DNA of 64,000 nucleotides from Escherichia coli. GTDB taxonomy: Bacteria > Pseudomonadota > Gammaproteobacteria > Enterobacterales > Enterobacteriaceae. A program made the translations under genes and the position numbers. The stretch is from NCBI RefSeq assembly GCF_003018255.1, contig NZ_CP027440.1. The stretch is one strand, 5' to 3'. Below the pieces are notes generated by a model. The model had not been told where the DNA came from, did not search any database, and saw only the letters and a program-made list of their open reading frames with translations. Positions 590 through 6,207 of the stretch are shown piece after piece; positions within the stretch are counted from its first letter, which is position 1; every line of letters begins with the position of its first letter.

Positions 590-674
590 GCCGAAGTGGC
601 GAAATCGGTAGACGCAGTTGATTCAAAATCAACCGTAGAAATACGTGCCGGTTCGAGTCCGGCCTTCGGCACCA
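590..674 (+). tRNA. leuX: tRNA-Leu, anticodon CAA
   Basis: 85-nt sequence GCCGAAGTGG...GGTTCGAGTCCGGCCTTCGGCACCA. It has a 7-bp acceptor stem, anticodon stem GTTGA/TCAAC with loop TTCAAAA (CAA), a long variable arm, a T-loop GGTTCGAGTCC and an encoded CCA. Confidence 0.95.
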
Positions 675-841: not shown

Positions 842-898
842 ATTTGGGGGCCAAATTGGGGGCTTAGACGTAGTTCGATAATAGTGAGGCCCCCAAAT
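842..898. promoter_or_regulatory. 11-bp inverted repeat bracketing the int 5' region and overlapping its SD/start codon
   Basis: ATTTGGGGGCC (842-852) and GGCCCCCAAAT (888-898), with a third direct copy AATTGGGGGC at 853-862. The int ATG is at 897. Confidence 0.4.
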
Positions 899-2573
899 GG
901 CACTAACAGATCGCGCTATAGTCCACGCCAAGCCTTGTGGCAAGCCGTATAAGCTCAGTGACTCGCATGGACTTTACCTGCTGGTTAACCCTAACGGTTC
1001 AAAACGCTGGTACATCAAGTACCGCTTTGTAAACAAAGAGAAAAAGCTCGCTTTAGGCCCTTATCCGCTTTTGACGCTTGCACAGGCAAGACGCATGCGT
1101 GAAGAGGCACAATTATTGCTGATTTCCGGCATCGATCCGAGTGCACGCCGAAAAGCAGAACGCCTTGCGATAACGCCGGAACATACGTTTGAGTCTGTGG
1201 CACGTGAATGGGTCACCAGTAACGTGAACTGGTCGGCGGAACATAAGAAGCGGGTGCTGCGTTATTTCGAGCTTTACGTATTCCCCACGAACGGCAGCTG
1301 TGACATCACCAAAATGAAGGTCAAAGATCTGCTGGTGCCCATCAAGGAAGTGGAGAAAGCGGGCAAACTGGATGTTGCTTCCCGGCTTCAGCAGCGCACT
1401 GCCTGCGTGATGCGCTACGCCGTCCAGAACGGCATTATCGATCATAACCCTGCATCAGATTTAACCGGCGCGGTCTCCACGCCCAAAGTACGGCATCACC
1501 CGGCGTTGGATCTGAATCTTATCCCTGATTTCCTGGAAAGAATCGACGATTACAAAGGCCGTCAACTGACTCAACTGGCGGTAAAACTGGCACTGCTGCT
1601 GTTTATCCGCTCCAGCGAACTGCGCTTTGCCCGCTGGGATGAAATTGATCTGCGTAACGCCATGTGGACCATCCCCGCTGAGCGTGAGCCGATCCCCGGC
1701 GTTAAATATTCAGCGCGTGGGGCGAAGATGCACTCCCCACACCTGGTCCCATTGTCACGTCAGGCCATCGAACTGCTGCACGAGGTGCGGCAGCATTGCC
1801 GACCGGGAACTGAACTGGTGTTCCCCGGCGATCACAATTACCGCAAGCCGATGAGTGAAAACACCATCAACAAAGCGCTGCGGGTGATGGGCTACGACAC
1901 CCAGAAAGATGTCTGTGGCCACGGTTTTCGCACTATGGCCTGTAGCGCGCTGGTGGAGTCGGGGCTGTGGTCAAGCGACGCGGTAGAGCGCCAGATGAGC
2001 CATCAGGAGCGCAAGCGCGTGCGTGCGGCGTATATCCACAAGGCGCAGCATCTCGAAGAACGTTGGGAGATGATGCAGTGGTGGGCGGATTATCTGGATG
2101 CAAACCGGTTCAGGCATGTTGTGCCGTATGGCTTCAAAAAGTCGCCGGGAGGCGCACTCGACCATATGAGTTTCCAGGAGCGCAATGACCGGCAGCTAGA
2201 GGAGCTGAAAGCCAGAATACTGGCTGACTCGGAATGGCTGACGGCGTCTGAATTATCCGCAAAAGCGGGCTTTCGTTCCGCCGATCCTGATGCTGGTCCG
2301 AAAGGCTGGAAAGCCGCCGGGAAGATATTCTCGCTGAAGGTCGATGGTGAGGATTTATACCCTGATTATGTTCTGGATGAGAAAATGCGGCCTCTCAAGG
2401 TTGTCCGTTTGATTCTTTCACTGTTTAAGGAGCGTAAAACACCGTGGGGGCTGGCTATCTGGTTTGGCTCGGCTAATCGCAGGTTGAGAGGTGGGAGGCC
2501 GAAAGACCTGCTGATTTCGAAGTCAGAGTTGGTTCTGATGGCGGCGCAGGAGGAGGTGGAGTCGGGGGAGTAG
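897..2573 (+). CDS. P4-type tyrosine integrase with a ~150-aa C-terminal extension
   Basis: 558 aa. N-terminal MALTDRAI..KPYKLSD..GLYLLV (DUF4102-like). Catalytic R (IRSSELRFARW), HGFRT and AAYIH (Tyr). Adjacent to the tRNA. Residues ~410-558 lie beyond the usual end of this family. Confidence 0.9.
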   Translation: MALTDRAIVHAKPCGKPYKLSDSHGLYLLVNPNGSKRWYIKYRFVNKEKKLALGPYPLLTLAQARRMREEAQLLLISGIDPSARRKAERLAITPEHTFESVAREWVTSNVNWSAEHKKRVLRYFELYVFPTNGSCDITKMKVKDLLVPIKEVEKAGKLDVASRLQQRTACVMRYAVQNGIIDHNPASDLTGAVSTPKVRHHPALDLNLIPDFLERIDDYKGRQLTQLAVKLALLLFIRSSELRFARWDEIDLRNAMWTIPAEREPIPGVKYSARGAKMHSPHLVPLSRQAIELLHEVRQHCRPGTELVFPGDHNYRKPMSENTINKALRVMGYDTQKDVCGHGFRTMACSALVESGLWSSDAVERQMSHQERKRVRAAYIHKAQHLEERWEMMQWWADYLDANRFRHVVPYGFKKSPGGALDHMSFQERNDRQLEELKARILADSEWLTASELSAKAGFRSADPDAGPKGWKAAGKIFSLKVDGEDLYPDYVLDEKMRPLKVVRLILSLFKERKTPWGLAIWFGSANRRLRGGRPKDLLISKSELVLMAAQEEVESGE

Positions 2574-2716
2574 GAATGGTTACTCAACCCTGAAAGAATG
2601 CGTCCAACTACTCTTTACCCTTCTTTCTTTAATGGAAAATGACGTTTGGAAGGTTGAATAAGGCATCGCATTTCTGGCGGTCTTTTTTTGATCATTTACG
2701 TTGCTTCTTTCTTTAT

Positions 2717-2771
2717 TTGTTCATAACATTGTTTTGTTCATGATTCATGAACAGTTATGAGGTGTGAACAA
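2717..2771. promoter_or_regulatory. Composite palindromic operator, copy 1 (four TGTTCA half-sites)
   Basis: TTGTTCATA...TTGTTCATGAtTCATGAACA...TGTGAACAA. Core 17-bp palindrome at 2736-2752. It ends at the SD/ATG of the next gene. Confidence 0.55.
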
Positions 2772-3770
2772 ATGAAGGAAGAACAGCTTTTGTCTGATGC
2801 GATAGAGAATCTGCCAAAAGGATTCCATTTGCAGTATGAACATAGCGGTAGACATGGTAAGCACGATGCCTGGGGTAAGCTAACAGGGCCGGATGGTGAG
2901 TCAGTGATATTTGCTCTGGAAGTAAAATTTATCCACCGTAAAGAGTCACTGATGGCTGTTCGCGAACAAATGGTTCGCTTTCCTGCGGATTTTCCTGTGC
3001 TGCTGGTGTGTAACCGCCTGACGTCTGCACTGGCGGAATATTGCGCCGACAGCCAGATCAACTTTATCGATACGGCAGGGAATGCCCGTATCCAGGTTCC
3101 AGGCTTGTATGTGCGGATCGAAGGCCGCTATGAAAAGAAACCCGTTTCCGCCAGCAGTCGTTTTGCTGAAGGGGTGATGAAGCTTCTTTTTGTTTTGCTG
3201 TCTAGCCCAGAGACCCTGAACGAGACTTACCGCAGTCTGGCCGGAAAGGCAGGTATCTCTCTGGGAATGGTCAGCAAGGCTTTTGATTATCTCGAAGCGC
3301 AACGCTATTTCCGCAAATCGAAGAAGGGGCGTCGCTTAATCAATGAAGGCGAGTTAGAGGCTTTGTGGCTGAAAGATTATGCTACAGCTTTGCGCCCTAA
3401 GCTGGATTCGCTTTCTTTATCCGCGCCTGTTTCATGGGATGAGTTGACGCTTGCGTCCGGGGAATACTGGAGCGGCGAGATTGCGGCGGCAAAGCTGAGC
3501 GGAGGATACCTGATACCAGAAAATGGCGTGATTTTTACATCCCATCCGTTGTTACAAAGGCGAAAGGAACTGGGACTAAAACCTGTTCCGGGGGGGAAAC
3601 TACAGCTGATCGCCGGTTTTTGGGGGAACTTTGTACTGAATCACAAAGCCGAGGCGATGCTATGCGTGGCTGAACTGCTGGCAAGCGGGGATGACAGAAA
3701 CTGGGAAACAGCAAGGATAATCAATGACAAATATCTTCACCTTAATGAATCCGATCTCTTCAGCTACTGA
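2772..3770 (+). CDS. Putative AbiEi-like / winged-helix protein (partner of downstream nucleotidyltransferase)
   Basis: ORF 2757-3770. The preferred ATG is at 2772 (GAGGTG SD 7 nt upstream). Central wHTH-like segment TYRSLAGKAGISLGMVSKAFDYLEAQRYF. Overlaps the next ORF. The family call is tentative. Confidence 0.5.
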   Translation: MKEEQLLSDAIENLPKGFHLQYEHSGRHGKHDAWGKLTGPDGESVIFALEVKFIHRKESLMAVREQMVRFPADFPVLLVCNRLTSALAEYCADSQINFIDTAGNARIQVPGLYVRIEGRYEKKPVSASSRFAEGVMKLLFVLLSSPETLNETYRSLAGKAGISLGMVSKAFDYLEAQRYFRKSKKGRRLINEGELEALWLKDYATALRPKLDSLSLSAPVSWDELTLASGEYWSGEIAAAKLSGGYLIPENGVIFTSHPLLQRRKELGLKPVPGGKLQLIAGFWGNFVLNHKAEAMLCVAELLASGDDRNWETARIINDKYLHLNESDLFSY

Positions 3771-4533
3771 AACGTTACTGAGTCAGATCAACCGTATTTG
3801 CACCGCTCAGGGGATCCCGTTTTTTATTGCAGGTGCAACGGCTCGTGAAATTCTGCTCCATCATATACACAGCAGAAGTATTGGTCGCCGAACCCGTGAT
3901 ATTGATATTGCCGTCTTTGTGGATAGCTGGCCGAGATTTGATGCGCTTAAAAATGCTTTCCTTGCTGAAGGGGCAGAAGTTGTCCAAGGTAATGCCCATC
4001 GTATGATTGTCAAAGGGATCGAGCTAGATATTATTCCTTTTGGTGGTGTTGCTGAAGGAAATCAAATTGCCTGGCCACCAGAACGTGAGATCATAATGGC
4101 TGTGGATGGATTTGCCGAAGTCTTTTCTCATACCGTAGTTGTGCGGCTGGATAACAGCGAAAATATTCCGTTCTGCTCCTTGCCAGGACTGGCTCTGTTA
4201 AAACTTTTTGCATGGCGTGATCGTGGGCATGGGAGTACTAAAGACGCGACCGATCTCTTTAAGATTATCTGTGAATATGGTGTTATCGAGAATGAACGCA
4301 TCTATGAATCGCCCGTCGAAGGGGAACGCCTGAACTGGGATCCCATACGTATGGGCGCTTTTCTGTTGGGAAGCGATATAGCGACAATTAGTGAACACTC
4401 ATCCTTGCAGGATTTACTCCATCTTGATAAAGAACGCCTGATCGATGTGATAGTACGACAACATGACGTGGGTGATGCTGGGATTGAGCAGATCATCAAT
4501 GATTTCTGGGATGGTATGGCAAGTGATGGTTGA
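3724..4533 (+). CDS. Pol-beta-superfamily nucleotidyltransferase, AbiEii-like
   Basis: 269 aa. AGATAREILLHHIHSRSIGRRTRDIDIAVFV fits the G-x-A..R-x-T-x-DID NTase motif, with a second acidic stretch IELDIIPFG. Overlaps the upstream gene. Confidence 0.6.
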   Translation: MTNIFTLMNPISSATETLLSQINRICTAQGIPFFIAGATAREILLHHIHSRSIGRRTRDIDIAVFVDSWPRFDALKNAFLAEGAEVVQGNAHRMIVKGIELDIIPFGGVAEGNQIAWPPEREIIMAVDGFAEVFSHTVVVRLDNSENIPFCSLPGLALLKLFAWRDRGHGSTKDATDLFKIICEYGVIENERIYESPVEGERLNWDPIRMGAFLLGSDIATISEHSSLQDLLHLDKERLIDVIVRQHDVGDAGIEQIINDFWDGMASDG

Positions 4534-4543
4534 GGATGTAGTT

Positions 4544-4598
4544 TTAGATGAAATGTTCACAACAGAGTTTTGTTCATGAATCATGAACGGTATTATTG
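4544..4598. repeat. Composite palindromic operator, copy 2 (downstream of the cassette)
   Basis: ATGTTCACAACAGAGTTTTGTTCATGAaTCATGAACGG...TGTGAACAA. Same half-site layout as 2717-2771. The 12+8 nt core is identical and overall identity is about 75%. Confidence 0.6.
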
Positions 4599-4677
4599 TG
4601 AACAATGGCAGGGCGTAACGCCAACTGCCCGATTAAGATGCGCTTATGTTATCAATAATGCCAGCCCAGAGTCAGTC

Positions 4678-4796
4678 GCGACATCATCAAACTGAAGGTC
4701 AAAGGCTTGCTGGTTCCCATCAAAGATAGTGGAGAACGCAGGTAAACTTGATGTTCCACCTTCCACGGCGCACCGCACCTTCGGCATGATGCGCTA
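4678..4796 (+). pseudogene. Fragment of a second P4-type integrase gene
   Basis: ~120 nt align at about 75% identity to int codons ~135-175 (compare 1291-1412): ..aaggtcaaagGcTtgctggtTcccatcaaAgaTagtggagaa... It has no start and is interrupted by stops. Confidence 0.7.
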
Positions 4797-4840: not shown

Positions 4841-5329
4841 ATGGCTAAAAAAACGGCTCCCTTAGTTCCCGGTACTAATCAGTTGCTTGCTGAGTTTGGC
4901 GAACGGCTTAAGCTGGCGCGACTGCGACGTAAGCTCACAGCGAAGCGGGTTGCTGAGCGAGCCGGGATGTCGCCAATGACCTTGCGTTCTCTTGAATCAG
5001 GCGGGACGGGCGTGACAATCGGCGCTTATTTGTCAGTTATGCAGATTTTGGGTCTTGAAAAGGATCTGAACAAACTTGCCGCTGAGGATGAACAGGGACG
5101 CCAACTTCAGGATTCCCGGCTAATAAATAAAACGCGTGTTTCTCGTCCTGCTGCTATCTCTCACACAAACAGGCATACCGGAAACGTGATAAAAAACGAT
5201 GCCTTCGACAAGCAATTCTCGACATCACAAGAAAAATCAATCGATTCTGAAGTTAAAACAGAAGTCGTGACATCTGCATCTCTTGCTGCACTGCTAAAAC
5301 CAATAAAGAAACCCAGAAAAGGTAGCTGA
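4841..5329 (+). CDS. XRE-family HTH transcriptional regulator
   Basis: 162 aa. [26 protein letters not shown], with a low-complexity C-terminus. Confidence 0.75.
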
Positions 5330-5693
5330 CACGCTGGAATTTTTGTATTGAAACGAGGGACTATAGATTTCGATAGCAAAAAATAAAGCCTGCTGATGAT
5401 ATGTTTAAAAAATGCCAAAAAATGTACATATGGCGTTGATATGTCGATGCTGTAAACATATTTTGGCGTTATGTCGATAAAACTGGTTTTTTTAAACATA
5501 TCGTCATGCTTAATCCAACCGCTCAATCAGTCTTATATCTGTTATGGAAAATGCTTGTAAAATGGCGCGTTCTGCCATCTGGCAATGTTCATATTTACTG
5601 GCTCGAGGAATATCGTCCCCCCTTAATTTCCATGAAAAGTAATTTTAATTCATTTAGTTATTAATCTTTTCTCCGCTGAGAATATGAATTTTT

Positions 5694-5739: not shown

Positions 5740-6081
5740 ATGAACGTAACCTCACCCAAAATGTTGTCTCAGGCAATCAGGGATGCACGCAAGCAACGTA
5801 ACCTGACCCAGCGTGAAACTGCAGCAAGTATGGGCATGAAACAGTCAACGGTTTCAGAGTTTGAGAACCATCCTGAGGGGACCAGCCTGGATACGCTCTT
5901 TAAGCTGCTTGCCGCTCTGGACCTTAAGCTTCAGGTCGTAAGCTGGAGGGGTAAAAAAACTCTTCTGATGGCTGGGAGCAGGAGTGGTGATCTGTGGAAA
6001 TATGAACAAAAAGGCCATGGCGCTATCCGGACGGAACCACCATTTTCACTAGCGTACCATCTGGATTTCCAGAGCACATAA
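5740..6081 (+). CDS. HipB-like XRE antitoxin/regulator, probably frameshifted at its 3' end
   Basis: MNVTSPKMLSQAIRDARKQRNLTQRETAASMGMKQSTVSEFENHP..LDTLFKLLAALDLKLQV. After the A7 tract (5953-5959), the alternative frame ends ..DGWEQEW* at 5990, resembling the HipB C-terminal ..EW. Confidence 0.65.
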   Translation: MNVTSPKMLSQAIRDARKQRNLTQRETAASMGMKQSTVSEFENHPEGTSLDTLFKLLAALDLKLQVVSWRGKKTLLMAGSRSGDLWKYEQKGHGAIRTEPPFSLAYHLDFQST

Positions 6082-6207
6082 GAGAAGCTATTTTTGCATC
6101 AGTCAGCGCGTATTCCGTAGCCATCTCGGCAGTAGTTGAAACAGTAAAAAATGCCCCTATTTCATGGCTAATTAACCGCTAAATTCCAGCCATGGAGGAA
6201 ACCACCG

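What the first reader, a model, noticed from the sequence alone, without database searches (positions are those of the whole stretch)
2717..4598. AbiE-like two-gene cassette bracketed by two copies of a ~55-bp four-half-site palindromic operator
An overlapping gene pair (a wHTH-containing 333-aa protein plus a Pol-beta nucleotidyltransferase with a G-x-A..RTRDIDI motif) resembles AbiEi/AbiEii type IV toxin-antitoxin/abortive-infection modules. In those modules the antitoxin autoregulates through promoter inverted repeats.
Unusually, the composite site (TGTTCA n11 TGTTCATGA-N-TCATGAACA n12 TGAACA) occurs twice. One copy lies at the promoter and start codon (2717-2771). The other lies just past the stop codon of the second gene (4544-4598). 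Both have identical core and half-site spacing.
The downstream copy is followed only by a 17-codon ORF and then an integrase fragment. It may be the orphaned promoter of a lost sister cassette, or the pair may mark recombination or cassette boundaries.
Basis: partly seen in the sequence, partly recalled or inferred. Interest (0 to 1): 0.55.

Follow-up and report, generated by a model that had tools for sequence, protein, structure and literature searches.

The report
Toxin-antitoxin cassette with a second operator
A two-gene toxin-antitoxin or phage-defence cassette in an E. coli leuX island carries its regulator's four-part palindromic binding site at its promoter and again just past its last gene; the second copy lacks a promoter but has been conserved in related bacteria, which is unusual for this kind of module.

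Summary
The composite site TGTTCA-n11-TGTTCATGAnTCATGAACA-n11-TGAACA lies at 2718-2770 (op1) and 4554-4604 (op2, right spacer 9 nt). These are the only two such sites in the 64 kb window.

The genes belong to the little-studied COG4861/COG4849 sister branch of AbiE (Pfam AbiEi_2 plus a DUF1814 nucleotidyltransferase), not to AbiE proper.

op1 overlaps the -35/-10, the ribosome-binding site and the start codon. The same site sits upstream of homologues across bacterial phyla, so it is almost certainly the autoregulatory operator.

op2 is not a family feature. Only 6 of 74 complete cassettes have a downstream copy. It is, however, orthologous between the E. coli and Brenneria lineages. Its half-sites are intact while its spacers are scrambled, and it has no promoter elements.

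I read op2 as a selectively maintained second binding site for the cassette's own regulator, acting as an auxiliary operator or roadblock. I do not read it as an orphaned promoter. A role as a recombination boundary is not excluded.

Side findings: orphan copies are common, including in phage genomes; many relatives have tandem operators; and the regulator has a nuclease-like N-terminal domain.

The parts
590..674 (+). tRNA-Leu(CAA) (leuX), the island's integration site
   Evidence: ARAGORN; RefSeq annotation of the identical E. coli locus.
897..2573 (+). P4-type tyrosine integrase ORF of 558 aa. The integrase domains end near residue 384 and are followed by a C-terminal extension with no Pfam match.
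   Evidence: Pfam Arm-DNA-bind_3, Phage_int_M and Phage_integrase. RefSeq-2144 a partial pseudogene. The same 558-aa ORF is intact at 96% identity in L105.
2701..2729 (+). Inferred sigma-70 promoter: -35 TTGCTT (2701-2706), 17-nt spacer containing the left outer half-site, -10 TAACAT (2724-2729).
   Evidence: A TTGCa/t hexamer lies 11 nt (or 7 nt in a second operator type) upstream of the left half-site and is conserved across Enterobacterales, Shewanella and Oceanimonas loci. This was read from the sequences; the promoter itself is inferred.
2718..2770 (.). op1, a four-half-site composite operator: TGTTCA 2718-2723, core TGTTCATGATTCATGAACA 2735-2753, TGAACA 2765-2770. The Shine-Dalgarno GAGGTG (2759-2764) lies in the right spacer.
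   Evidence: The same site lies upstream of homologues in 112 of 148 family genes examined. A logo from 102 distinct sites is.
2772..3770 (+). Gene 1: a COG4861/AbiEi_2-type regulator and putative antitoxin of 332 aa. It has an N-terminal PD-(D/E)xK-like domain (1-120), a winged helix-turn-helix (133-190) and a C-terminal AbiEi_2 domain (188-322).
3724..4533 (+). Gene 2: a DUF1814 (COG4849-type) Pol-beta-fold nucleotidyltransferase and putative toxin of 269 aa. Motifs: AGATA...RRTRDIDI and KLFAWRDR.
   Evidence: Pfam PF08843 at 21.9 bits against a cut-off of 22.5. 32 of 33 homologues match. Invariant R55, T57, D59, D61, K160, W164. Motif III KLxAaxxR as defined in PMC3985639.
4554..4604 (.). 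op2, the second composite site without a promoter: TGTTCA 4554-4559, core TGTTCATGAATCATGAACG 4571-4589, TGAACA 4599-4604. Left spacer 11 nt, right spacer 9 nt.
   Evidence: It is orthologous to sites in L003, L004, L105, L166 and L208 and to the remnants in L002 and L149.
4605..4658 (+). 17-codon ORF starting directly after op2. It is not conserved outside the closest relatives and is probably not a gene.
   Evidence: Read. L004, L002 and L208 carry unrelated sequence here.
4674..4794 (+). Internal fragment of a P4-type integrase gene (about residues 134-173, with a frame shift).
   Evidence: tblastn of the window's integrase.

Best explanation
The cassette is a COG4861/COG4849-type relative of AbiE/MenAT. 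Gene 1 encodes a DNA-binding partner and gene 2 a DUF1814 nucleotidyltransferase toxin.

op1 is the family's autoregulatory operator. Four half-sites cover the promoter spacer, the transcription start region, the ribosome-binding site and the start codon, so binding of gene 1's winged-helix domain would shut off the operon.

op2 is a second binding site for the same protein. It was acquired at the base of one Enterobacterales clade and has been kept by selection at a fixed place 18-20 nt after the toxin gene's stop codon. It has no promoter of its own.

op2 most likely works together with op1. It may act as a distal auxiliary operator, with protein bridging the two sites and looping out the 1.8 kb operon. 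This would be the distal equivalent of the tandem double operators seen in many relatives. It may also act as a protein roadblock that bounds the transcription unit.

Shown here: site conservation, orthology, the selection signature and the lack of promoter elements. Inferred: binding by gene 1's product, looping or roadblock action, toxicity and antitoxicity.
For: Family assignment:
- Pfam results.
- The gene pair is conserved in about 60 loci from Proteobacteria to Bacteroidota and Actinomycetota.

op1 as the operator:
- In 112 of 148 family genes the core lies within 170 nt upstream.
- In the metagenome scan, 94 of 138 site instances lie just upstream of such a gene.
- The right outer half-site, which was not part of the search pattern, sits at n11 in 71 of 102 sites.
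- The -35 is conserved at a fixed offset.

op2 orthology:
- Window 2684-4606 aligns without a break to Brenneria L208 2913-4840 at 78.6% and ends at op2's right edge.
- Lineages carrying op2 lie on both sides of the clade's deepest split.

Selection on op2:
- Window versus L004: 0 of 31 half-site positions differ, against 8 of 20 spacer positions.
- Window versus L208: spacers match at 4 of 11 positions while the half-sites are kept.
- L028: 1 of 31 half-site differences against 7 of 22 spacer differences within a 91%-identical repeat.

Other points:
- op2 has no -35 or -10 in any lineage.
- About 27 loci carry two composite sites 54-126 bp apart. Five lineages carry distal pairs 832-2119 bp apart that bracket a transcription unit.
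- Four inverted repeats in an AbiEi-type promoter have precedent in Rv2827c (PMC7319586).
Against: - No binding, looping or expression data exist for this branch.
- Only 6 of 74 complete cassettes have a downstream copy, 5 of them in this window's own lineage. The clade members L005, L210, L209 and L212 have lost it or lack it. It is therefore dispensable.
- op2's right outer half-site is 2 bp out of register with the family norm; none of 102 op1 sites has n9.
- One intact cassette (L166) has a mutated op2 half-site.
- The cassette-less remnant L149 still has perfect half-sites. That fits poorly with selection exerted by a resident regulator, unless one acts in trans.
- op2's right spacer resembles that of a different operator subtype, which hints at a foreign origin.
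Confidence: 0.5

Rival explanations
1. op2 is the leftover operator or promoter of a neighbouring cassette of the same family whose genes were deleted. It is a scar with no present function.
For: - Orphan operators are common: 42 of 138 instances in metagenome loci have no family gene nearby, 17 or more of them with over 1 kb of sequence on both sides.
- Decayed cassettes keep the operator (L103, L115, L193).
- op2's right spacer (TATTATTG/TATTATCG) is closest to the operators of a different cassette subtype (L028, L036, L119).
- An ATG follows op2 directly, as it does op1.
- In L022 a second site follows a canonical terminator, like the start of a new unit.
Against: - No -35 and no usable -10 in any op2 lineage. 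Similarity to op1 starts at the left half-site, although the family's -35 lies only 7-11 nt further upstream.
- The offset after the stop codon is a constant 18-20 nt.
- op2 is orthologous across lineages with about 21% nucleotide divergence.
- Half-sites are conserved while spacers are randomised.
- No locus with two tandem cassettes was found among about 200 loci.
Confidence: 0.15
2. The two sites mark the ends of a mobile or exchangeable cassette. Recombination at the palindrome, site-specific or short-homology, inserts or excises op-Ei-NT units. Solo sites would be empty or post-excision sites, and the nuclease-like N-terminal domain of gene 1's product might take part.
For: - Homology of the window with L004, L002 and L208 ends at the right edge of op2 (4611, 4602, 4606). 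Homology with L005 to L009 starts at the promoter or op1.
- The repeats bracketing the cassette are direct.
- Solo sites occur in very diverse chromosomal and phage contexts.
- The D..ExK triad is conserved, with weak fold matches to EndoMS/NucS, XisH-like, AF1548 and CdiA-CT nucleases.
Against: - 68 of 74 complete cassettes have no downstream site.
- Several relatives end exactly at the stop codon (L005, L209).
- No empty versus occupied pair with identical flanks was found. In E. coli the upstream flank never occurs without the cassette.
- In L028 the flanking repeat is 240 nt and includes the 3' end of a housekeeping gene. That points to island accretion or duplication rather than crossover at the site.
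- The region after op2 is simply indel-rich within one island backbone.
- The core has a 1-nt centre, unlike known recombinase crossover sites (my knowledge).
Confidence: 0.12
3. op2 acts at the RNA level. The transcribed palindrome forms a 3' hairpin that terminates the operon or protects the mRNA 3' end, and the likeness to op1 is secondary.
For: - The scan flags op2's core as terminator-like: 9-bp stem, tail TATTATTGTG.
- The op2 RNA folds to -19.2 kcal/mol (z = -2.2).
- Several relatives without op2 have a canonical terminator at this position (L005, L007, L010, L027, L030; read).
- L208's op2 is a near-perfect 53-nt palindrome.
Against: - The T-rich tail is not conserved (L004, L002, L149, L208), and the stem has only 3 G-C pairs.
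- There is no covariation. Spacer complementarity in non-promoter copies (4.55 of 11) is about the same as in op1 (3.96 of 11).
- What is conserved is the exact half-site sequence shared with op1, not pairing.
- Under strict criteria only 9 of 63 cassettes have a terminator-like hairpin after the stop codon, so a terminator slot is not a family rule.
Confidence: 0.12

Closest known systems
AbiE (Streptococcus agalactiae AbiEi/AbiEii) and M. tuberculosis MenAT3/MenAT4 (COG5340 antitoxin + COG2253 DUF1814 NTase)
   Same: - A bicistronic, overlapping operon with the regulator first and the Pol-beta-fold DUF1814 NTase second.
- The regulator has a winged helix.
- Inverted repeats overlap the promoter; in Rv2827c there are four repeats (PMC3985639, PMC7319586).
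   Different: - The partner protein is PF09952/COG4861, not COG5340. Its winged helix is central and preceded by an extra 120-aa nuclease-like domain.
- The NTase carries the COG4849 motif KLxAaxxR.
- PADLOC's defence models do not recognise the partner.
- The operator has 6-bp half-sites in a 53-bp composite rather than 23-bp repeats.
- A second operator past the operon's end has not been described for AbiE.
COG4861-COG4849 gene pairs (e.g. M. tuberculosis Rv0837c-Rv0836c, MenA2/MenT2)
   Same: The same two protein families in the same order. This is the branch the cassette belongs to.
   Different: The branch is essentially uncharacterised. MenT2 was omitted from one study for 'a lack of detectable activity' (PMC11375011). 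I found no description of its operator.
Phage lambda OR/OL (CI octamer loop enclosing cI-rexA-rexB) and other distal auxiliary operators (lac O2/O3, gal OI, deo)
   Same: Two multi-subsite operator clusters with the same recognition sequence. One lies at the promoter and one is a promoterless distal site. In lambda they lie 2.4 kb apart and bracket an operon that includes an abortive-infection system (my knowledge).
   Different: No evidence exists that the COG4861 protein oligomerises or loops DNA. Here the distal site is dispensable in many relatives.
Solo or flanking recombination sites (integron attC, solo LTR-like scars)
   Same: Direct repeats of a palindromic site bracket a gene cassette, and solo copies are scattered in other contexts.
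   Different: No dedicated recombinase is present, most cassettes are not bracketed, and no precise insertion/excision polymorphism was found.

Membership tests
AbiE proper (COG5340 AbiEi + COG2253 AbiEii) | Bicistronic operon with the regulator gene directly upstream of, and overlapping, the NTase gene | tested here: met
   2772-3770 and 3724-4533 overlap by 47 nt. The arrangement is kept in about 60 loci.
AbiE proper (COG5340 AbiEi + COG2253 AbiEii) | Antitoxin of the COG5340 type: N-terminal winged helix plus a C-terminal antitoxicity domain | tested here: not met
AbiE proper (COG5340 AbiEi + COG2253 AbiEii) | Toxin is a DUF1814 (PF08843) Pol-beta-fold NTase with the catalytic G..DxD motif | tested here: inconclusive
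   The window protein scores 21.9 bits against a cut-off of 22.5, but 32 of 33 homologues match PF08843, best E 9.9e-12. G37, D59 and D61 are invariant or nearly so. Motif III is of the COG4849 type rather than COG2253.
AbiE proper (COG5340 AbiEi + COG2253 AbiEii) | Negative autoregulation through inverted repeats in the promoter | not testable with these tools
   The sequence prerequisites are present and conserved. Binding and repression need experiments.
AbiE proper (COG5340 AbiEi + COG2253 AbiEii) | NTase is toxic, is neutralised by the partner, and protects against phage | not testable with these tools
   No computation can show this.
COG4861-COG4849 pair (MenA2/MenT2-like) | Partner protein belongs to PF09952/COG4861 and has a winged helix | tested here: met
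   PF09952 scores 57.3 bits against a cut-off of 21. All listed homologues carry PF09952. The winged helix is seen in the model, with MarR and Crp matches.
COG4861-COG4849 pair (MenA2/MenT2-like) | NTase carries the COG4849 motif III, KLxAaxxR | tested here: met
   KLFAWRDR is at residues 160-167. K160 and W164 are invariant in 33 homologues. The motif is defined in PMC3985639.
Distal auxiliary operator (lambda OL/OR, lac, gal type) | A second site with the same recognition sequence, lacking its own promoter, at a distance from the regulated promoter | tested here: met
   op2 has all four half-sites and no -35 or -10. It starts 1836 bp downstream of the start of op1 (start-to-start).
Distal auxiliary operator (lambda OL/OR, lac, gal type) | The repressor oligomerises and bridges both sites, and removing the distal site weakens repression | not testable with these tools
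   Needs EMSA, AFM or 3C and reporter assays.
Site-specific recombination cassette (integron-like) | Cassettes are regularly bounded by the site, and empty and occupied alleles differ by exactly one unit | tested here: not met
   6 of 74 cassettes are bracketed. No empty allele occurs in 5426 E. coli genomes. The L028 repeat extends 190 nt beyond the site.
Intrinsic (Rho-independent) terminator | G+C-rich stem followed by a conserved U-tract | tested here: not met
   The stem has 3 G-C pairs of 9. The tail is T-rich only in the window's closest relatives and is absent in L004, L002, L149 and L208.

The most novel reading that the evidence does not exclude
The 53-bp composite palindrome may be a portable cis element recognised by COG4861 proteins across bacterial phyla, and not only a private operator.
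- It occurs as solo copies in chromosomes and in phage genomes. In one phage it sits 4 nt upstream of a tRNA-Leu gene inside a 16-tRNA array.
- It occurs as direct repeats around gene units.
- The protein that reads it carries a conserved D..ExK nuclease-like domain.

The site could therefore take part in phage-host conflict, with phage copies titrating or exploiting the regulator of a tRNA-targeting toxin. It could also take part in cassette mobility, with the protein cutting or pairing the sites.
Probability: 0.12. Interest if true: 0.8.

Novelty: new variant of a known kind. Interest (0 to 1): 0.5.

Why it matters
DUF1814 nucleotidyltransferase toxins (AbiEii, MenT) block translation by modifying tRNA. 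They matter for phage defence and for M. tuberculosis physiology. The COG4861/COG4849 branch has no described operator or regulatory logic.

This locus supplies three things:
- A precise, testable operator consensus that holds across phyla.
- A natural case of a conserved, promoterless second operator at the 3' end of a toxin-antitoxin operon. I found no such arrangement described for these systems.
- A three-domain architecture for the partner protein, with a nuclease-like domain that may mean it is more than an antitoxin and repressor.

If op2 loops with op1 or blocks read-through, it would add a new layer to toxin-antitoxin transcriptional control. If not, it is a well-documented case of binding sites outliving or travelling with their cassette.

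Tried and rejected
1. Known RNA family: Rfam returned only a chance palindrome hit.
2. Canonical terminator slot: my impression that cassettes without op2 usually have a terminator did not hold. Only 9 of 63 meet strict criteria.
3. RNA hairpin selection: the spacers show no excess complementarity.
4. Decay of op2 after cassette loss: L002 shows decay but L149 does not, so this is inconclusive.
5. Outward promoters inside the sites (TTCACA-17-AATCAT): these follow from the palindrome and the Shine-Dalgarno sequence, and are not independently conserved.
6. L188, with a third distant site, is a mirror-image contig and probably an assembly artefact.
7. An integrase fragment after op2 as a shared junction in L149: tblastn did not support it.
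8. Other targets of the regulator in the island or the genome: there are none in the window, and the six E. coli genomes carrying the cassette have exactly two sites each.
9. PDB sequence searches for both proteins found nothing useful.
10. The literature searches found no paper containing the operator string, no analysis of PF09952 beyond mentions in two papers, and no report of a TA operon with a downstream operator.
Full report
OBSERVATION

The window region is identical to the chromosome of E. coli JNE23-011 at the leuX tRNA-Leu island.

Two overlapping + strand genes lie at 2772-3770 (332 aa) and 3724-4533 (269 aa).

The upstream composite site (op1) reads TGTTCA (2718-2723), 11 nt, TGTTCATGATTCATGAACA (2735-2753), 11 nt, TGAACA (2765-2770). 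It ends one base before the ATG.

The downstream site (op2) is TGTTCA (4554-4559), 11 nt, TGTTCATGAATCATGAACG (4571-4589), 9 nt, TGAACA (4599-4604). It starts 20 nt after the stop codon of gene 2.

The claim of identical core and spacing is not exact.

The core with up to 3 mismatches occurs twice in 64 kb, against 0.05 expected. A scan for the whole four-half-site geometry finds only these two sites in the window. That scan gives 0 hits in 1.3 Mb of shuffled locus sequence.

The 17-codon ORF and the integrase fragment after op2 are present.

THE GENES

Gene 1 matches Pfam AbiEi_2 (PF09952, 57.3 bits, residues 188-322). Gene 2 scores 21.9 bits on AbiEii (PF08843), just under the cut-off of 22.5. 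However, 32 of 33 of its homologues match that family.

Gene 2 carries the COG4849 motif KLxAaxxR (KLFAWRDR). It also has invariant R55, T57, D59, D61, K160 and W164.

Dy et al. (PMC3985639) distinguish two pairs: COG5340-COG2253, which is AbiE proper, and COG4861-COG4849. This cassette belongs to the second pair. Its only studied member, M. tuberculosis MenT2, was omitted from one study 'due to a lack of detectable activity' (PMC11375011).

PADLOC and NCBIfam do not recognise gene 1.

An AlphaFold model of gene 1's product (pLDDT 90.6) shows three domains.
- The C-terminal domain corresponds to AbiEi_2.
- The N-terminal alpha/beta domain carries D32...E50-x-K52, conserved in 61, 54 and 63 of 71 homologues. 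D100 and G103 are invariant.

The N-terminal domain gives only weak fold matches, all to PD-(D/E)xK nucleases: EndoMS/NucS (Foldseek probability 0.98, E 0.02), an XisH-like protein, AF1548 and CdiA-CT. I treat the nuclease-like fold as likely and any nuclease activity as unknown.

op1 IS THE FAMILY OPERATOR

I fetched 80 genome loci that encode homologues of gene 1. The NTase gene follows in nearly all of them.

In gamma-proteobacterial loci with 35-97% protein identity, the same four-half-site site lies directly upstream. A TTGCa/t -35 lies 11 nt upstream of the left half-site (7 nt in a second type). As a result the left half-site lies in the promoter spacer, and the -10 follows it. The core covers the start region, and the right half-site lies between the Shine-Dalgarno sequence and the ATG.

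Of 138 site instances, 94 lie just upstream of a family gene, including genes only about 30% identical to any of my queries.

The right outer half-site was not part of the search pattern, yet it is at n11 in 71 of 102 distinct sites and never at n9.

Overall, 112 of 148 family genes have the core within 170 nt upstream.

This is strong comparative evidence for an autoregulatory operator. Binding itself is inferred by analogy with AbiEi and Rv2827c (PMC7319586).

op2 IS LINEAGE-SPECIFIC BUT OLD AND CONSERVED

Among 74 complete cassettes with at least 120 nt of sequence after the stop codon, only 6 have a second core within 500 nt downstream. Five belong to the window's own lineage (L001, L003, L004, L105, L166). 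The sixth is Marinomonas L028.

Within the clade whose gene 1 is at least 79% identical to the window's, Brenneria goodwinii (L208) also has op2 20 nt after the stop codon. Window 2684-4606 aligns without a break to L208 2913-4840 at 78.6% and ends at op2's right edge.

In a neighbour-joining tree of gene 1, lineages with op2 lie on both sides of the deepest split. L005, L210, L209 and L212 lack it, as do the outgroups. The simplest reading is one gain at the base of the clade followed by several losses. Two of those losses (L209, L212) are in loci whose NTase gene is already broken.

Two kinds of cassette-less remnant keep the 3' end of the NTase gene plus op2:
- L002, found in 47 of 5426 E. 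coli genomes at leuX, 86% identical.
- L149, a Brenneria-type remnant next to a glpD-like gene, identified only from its N-terminal sequence.

Across all these copies the half-sites are kept while the spacers are scrambled and vary between 9 and 11 nt.
- Window versus L004: 0 of 31 half-site positions differ, against 8 of 20 spacer positions.
- Window versus L208: the spacers match at 4 of 11 positions.
- L028 shows the same pattern inside a 240-nt repeat that is 91% identical: 1 of 31 against 7 of 22.

op2 has no -35 and no usable -10 in any lineage. Its similarity to op1 begins at the left half-site.

WHAT op2 IS LIKELY TO DO

These features fit a protein-binding site kept by selection and fit a decaying promoter poorly.

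Many relatives have two composite sites. About 27 loci carry tandem pairs 54-126 bp apart upstream of gene 1. Five lineages carry distal pairs 832-2119 bp apart.

Each distal pair brackets a transcription unit:
- The cassette itself, in the window clade and in L028.
- A truncated cassette in L022.
- A divergently transcribed metallophosphatase gene in Leclercia L016 and L017.
- A 168-aa ORF in L191.

I therefore favour op2 as a distal partner of op1, acting as an auxiliary operator through looping, as a roadblock at the operon's end, or as both. My confidence is 0.5 that op2 is a functional site for gene 1's protein. The exact mode of action is open.

RIVALS

Relic of a sister cassette (0.15). 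Orphan sites are common, and op2's right spacer resembles a different operator subtype. The lack of a promoter, the fixed offset, the orthology and the selection pattern argue against this.

Recombination or cassette boundary (0.12). Homology with other lineages stops at op2's right edge, solo sites exist, and the protein has a nuclease-like domain. However, most cassettes are not bracketed, no empty or occupied alleles were found, and the L028 repeat includes 145 nt of a carboxypeptidase gene. That points to island accretion at a hot spot. The stretch after op2 is also simply indel-rich within one island backbone. L002 and L004 resume homology with the window at 5396-5585, and L004 is cut by an IS1 end.

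RNA hairpin or terminator (0.12). The window's op2 is flagged as terminator-like. The T-tail and the pairing are not conserved, and there is no covariation.

COMPARISON AND NOVELTY

The cassette is a member of a known but uncharacterised branch of the AbiE/MenAT superfamily. RefSeq already names it as such.

Several things appear to be undescribed in the library I could search:
- The operator consensus for this branch and its conservation across phyla.
- The tandem and distal double-operator arrangements.
- The conserved promoterless copy at the 3' end in this clade.

I rate it a new variant of a known kind, with interest 0.5.

The most novel reading not excluded is that the palindrome is a portable element. 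It could be involved in phage-host conflict, or in cassette mobility using the partner's nuclease-like domain. All five copies in viral contigs are orphans. One of them lies 4 nt upstream of a tRNA-Leu gene in a 16-tRNA array. I give this reading a probability of about 0.12.

Noticed in passing
L207:2325-2469 (IMG/VR contig IMGVR_UViG_3300002307_000075); also L203-L206: All five operator copies found in viral contigs are orphans, with no COG4861 or NTase gene in the DNA held. In L207 the site ends 4 nt before a tRNA-Leu(UAA) gene inside an array of 16 tRNA genes. This is notable because DUF1814 toxins target tRNAs.
   Followed up: partly
Metagenome loci L084-L201 (e.g. L087:1524-1576, L156, L100, L133, L174): About 30% of operator instances (42 of 138) have no family gene nearby. 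Their contexts are diverse and include type I restriction-modification genes, HipA-like genes and an integrase. Two orphan sites examined (L087, L189) are perfect 53-bp palindromes and L156 is nearly so.
   Followed up: partly
L016:3082-3992 and L017:3099-3996: In Leclercia, a calcineurin-like metallophosphatase gene (PF00149) lies on the opposite strand between two composite operators, next to the Ei-NT cassette. Related toxins are controlled by phosphorylation, so the phosphatase might be an accessory component.
   Followed up: partly
window 2772-3140 (residues 1-120 of gene 1): The putative antitoxin has an N-terminal domain with a conserved D32..E50-x-K52 triad and invariant D100/G103. It gives weak fold matches to PD-(D/E)xK nucleases (EndoMS/NucS, XisH-like, AF1548). 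This was not mentioned in the papers I read.
   Followed up: partly
L044, L047, L049, L053, L054, L056, L058, L093, L106, L124, L126-L128 and others: Many beta-proteobacterial and soil cassettes carry two complete composite operators in tandem (eight half-sites) upstream of gene 1. The spacings are 54-56, 66-69 or 84-85 bp.
   Followed up: partly
window 897-2573: The integrase ORF runs on for about 140 codons beyond the point (2144) where RefSeq ends its partial pseudogene; that part (tested from 2217) has no Pfam match. RefSeq calls the gene a partial pseudogene, yet the same 558-aa ORF is intact at 96% identity in metagenome locus L105.
   Followed up: partly
window 5396-5505; L004:5877-5905; L002:6330-6365: The inverted repeat GATATGTTTAAAAAA ... 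TTTTTTAAACATATC lies upstream of the XRE-type gene at 5740-6081. Related copies follow op2 closely in L002 and L004. Relative to them, the window has an insert holding the integrase fragment and the HTH gene at 4841-5329.
   Followed up: no
L002:6464-6565: An unannotated 33-codon ORF encodes a strongly hydrophobic peptide (MPLQIIILILVAALTLGLVLIVLWRRIFGYRSW). It lies downstream of the orphan op2 in the 47 E. coli genomes with the remnant, and it resembles small membrane toxins.
   Followed up: no
L028:3742-3981 and 5861-6100; L036:137-396 and 3381-3615: In Marinomonas, the 3' end of an ORF that looks like an M32-type carboxypeptidase gene (judged from its sequence only) is duplicated around inserted DNA. 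This suggests an integration hot spot where islands carrying these cassettes accumulate.
   Followed up: partly
L004:5908-5977: The Franconibacter contig ends in an IS1 terminal inverted repeat about 70 nt after op2.
   Followed up: no
L188:600-4400: The contig is a large mirror-image inverted duplication that includes the operator. It is probably a metagenome assembly artefact and was excluded from the counts of distal pairs.
   Followed up: yes
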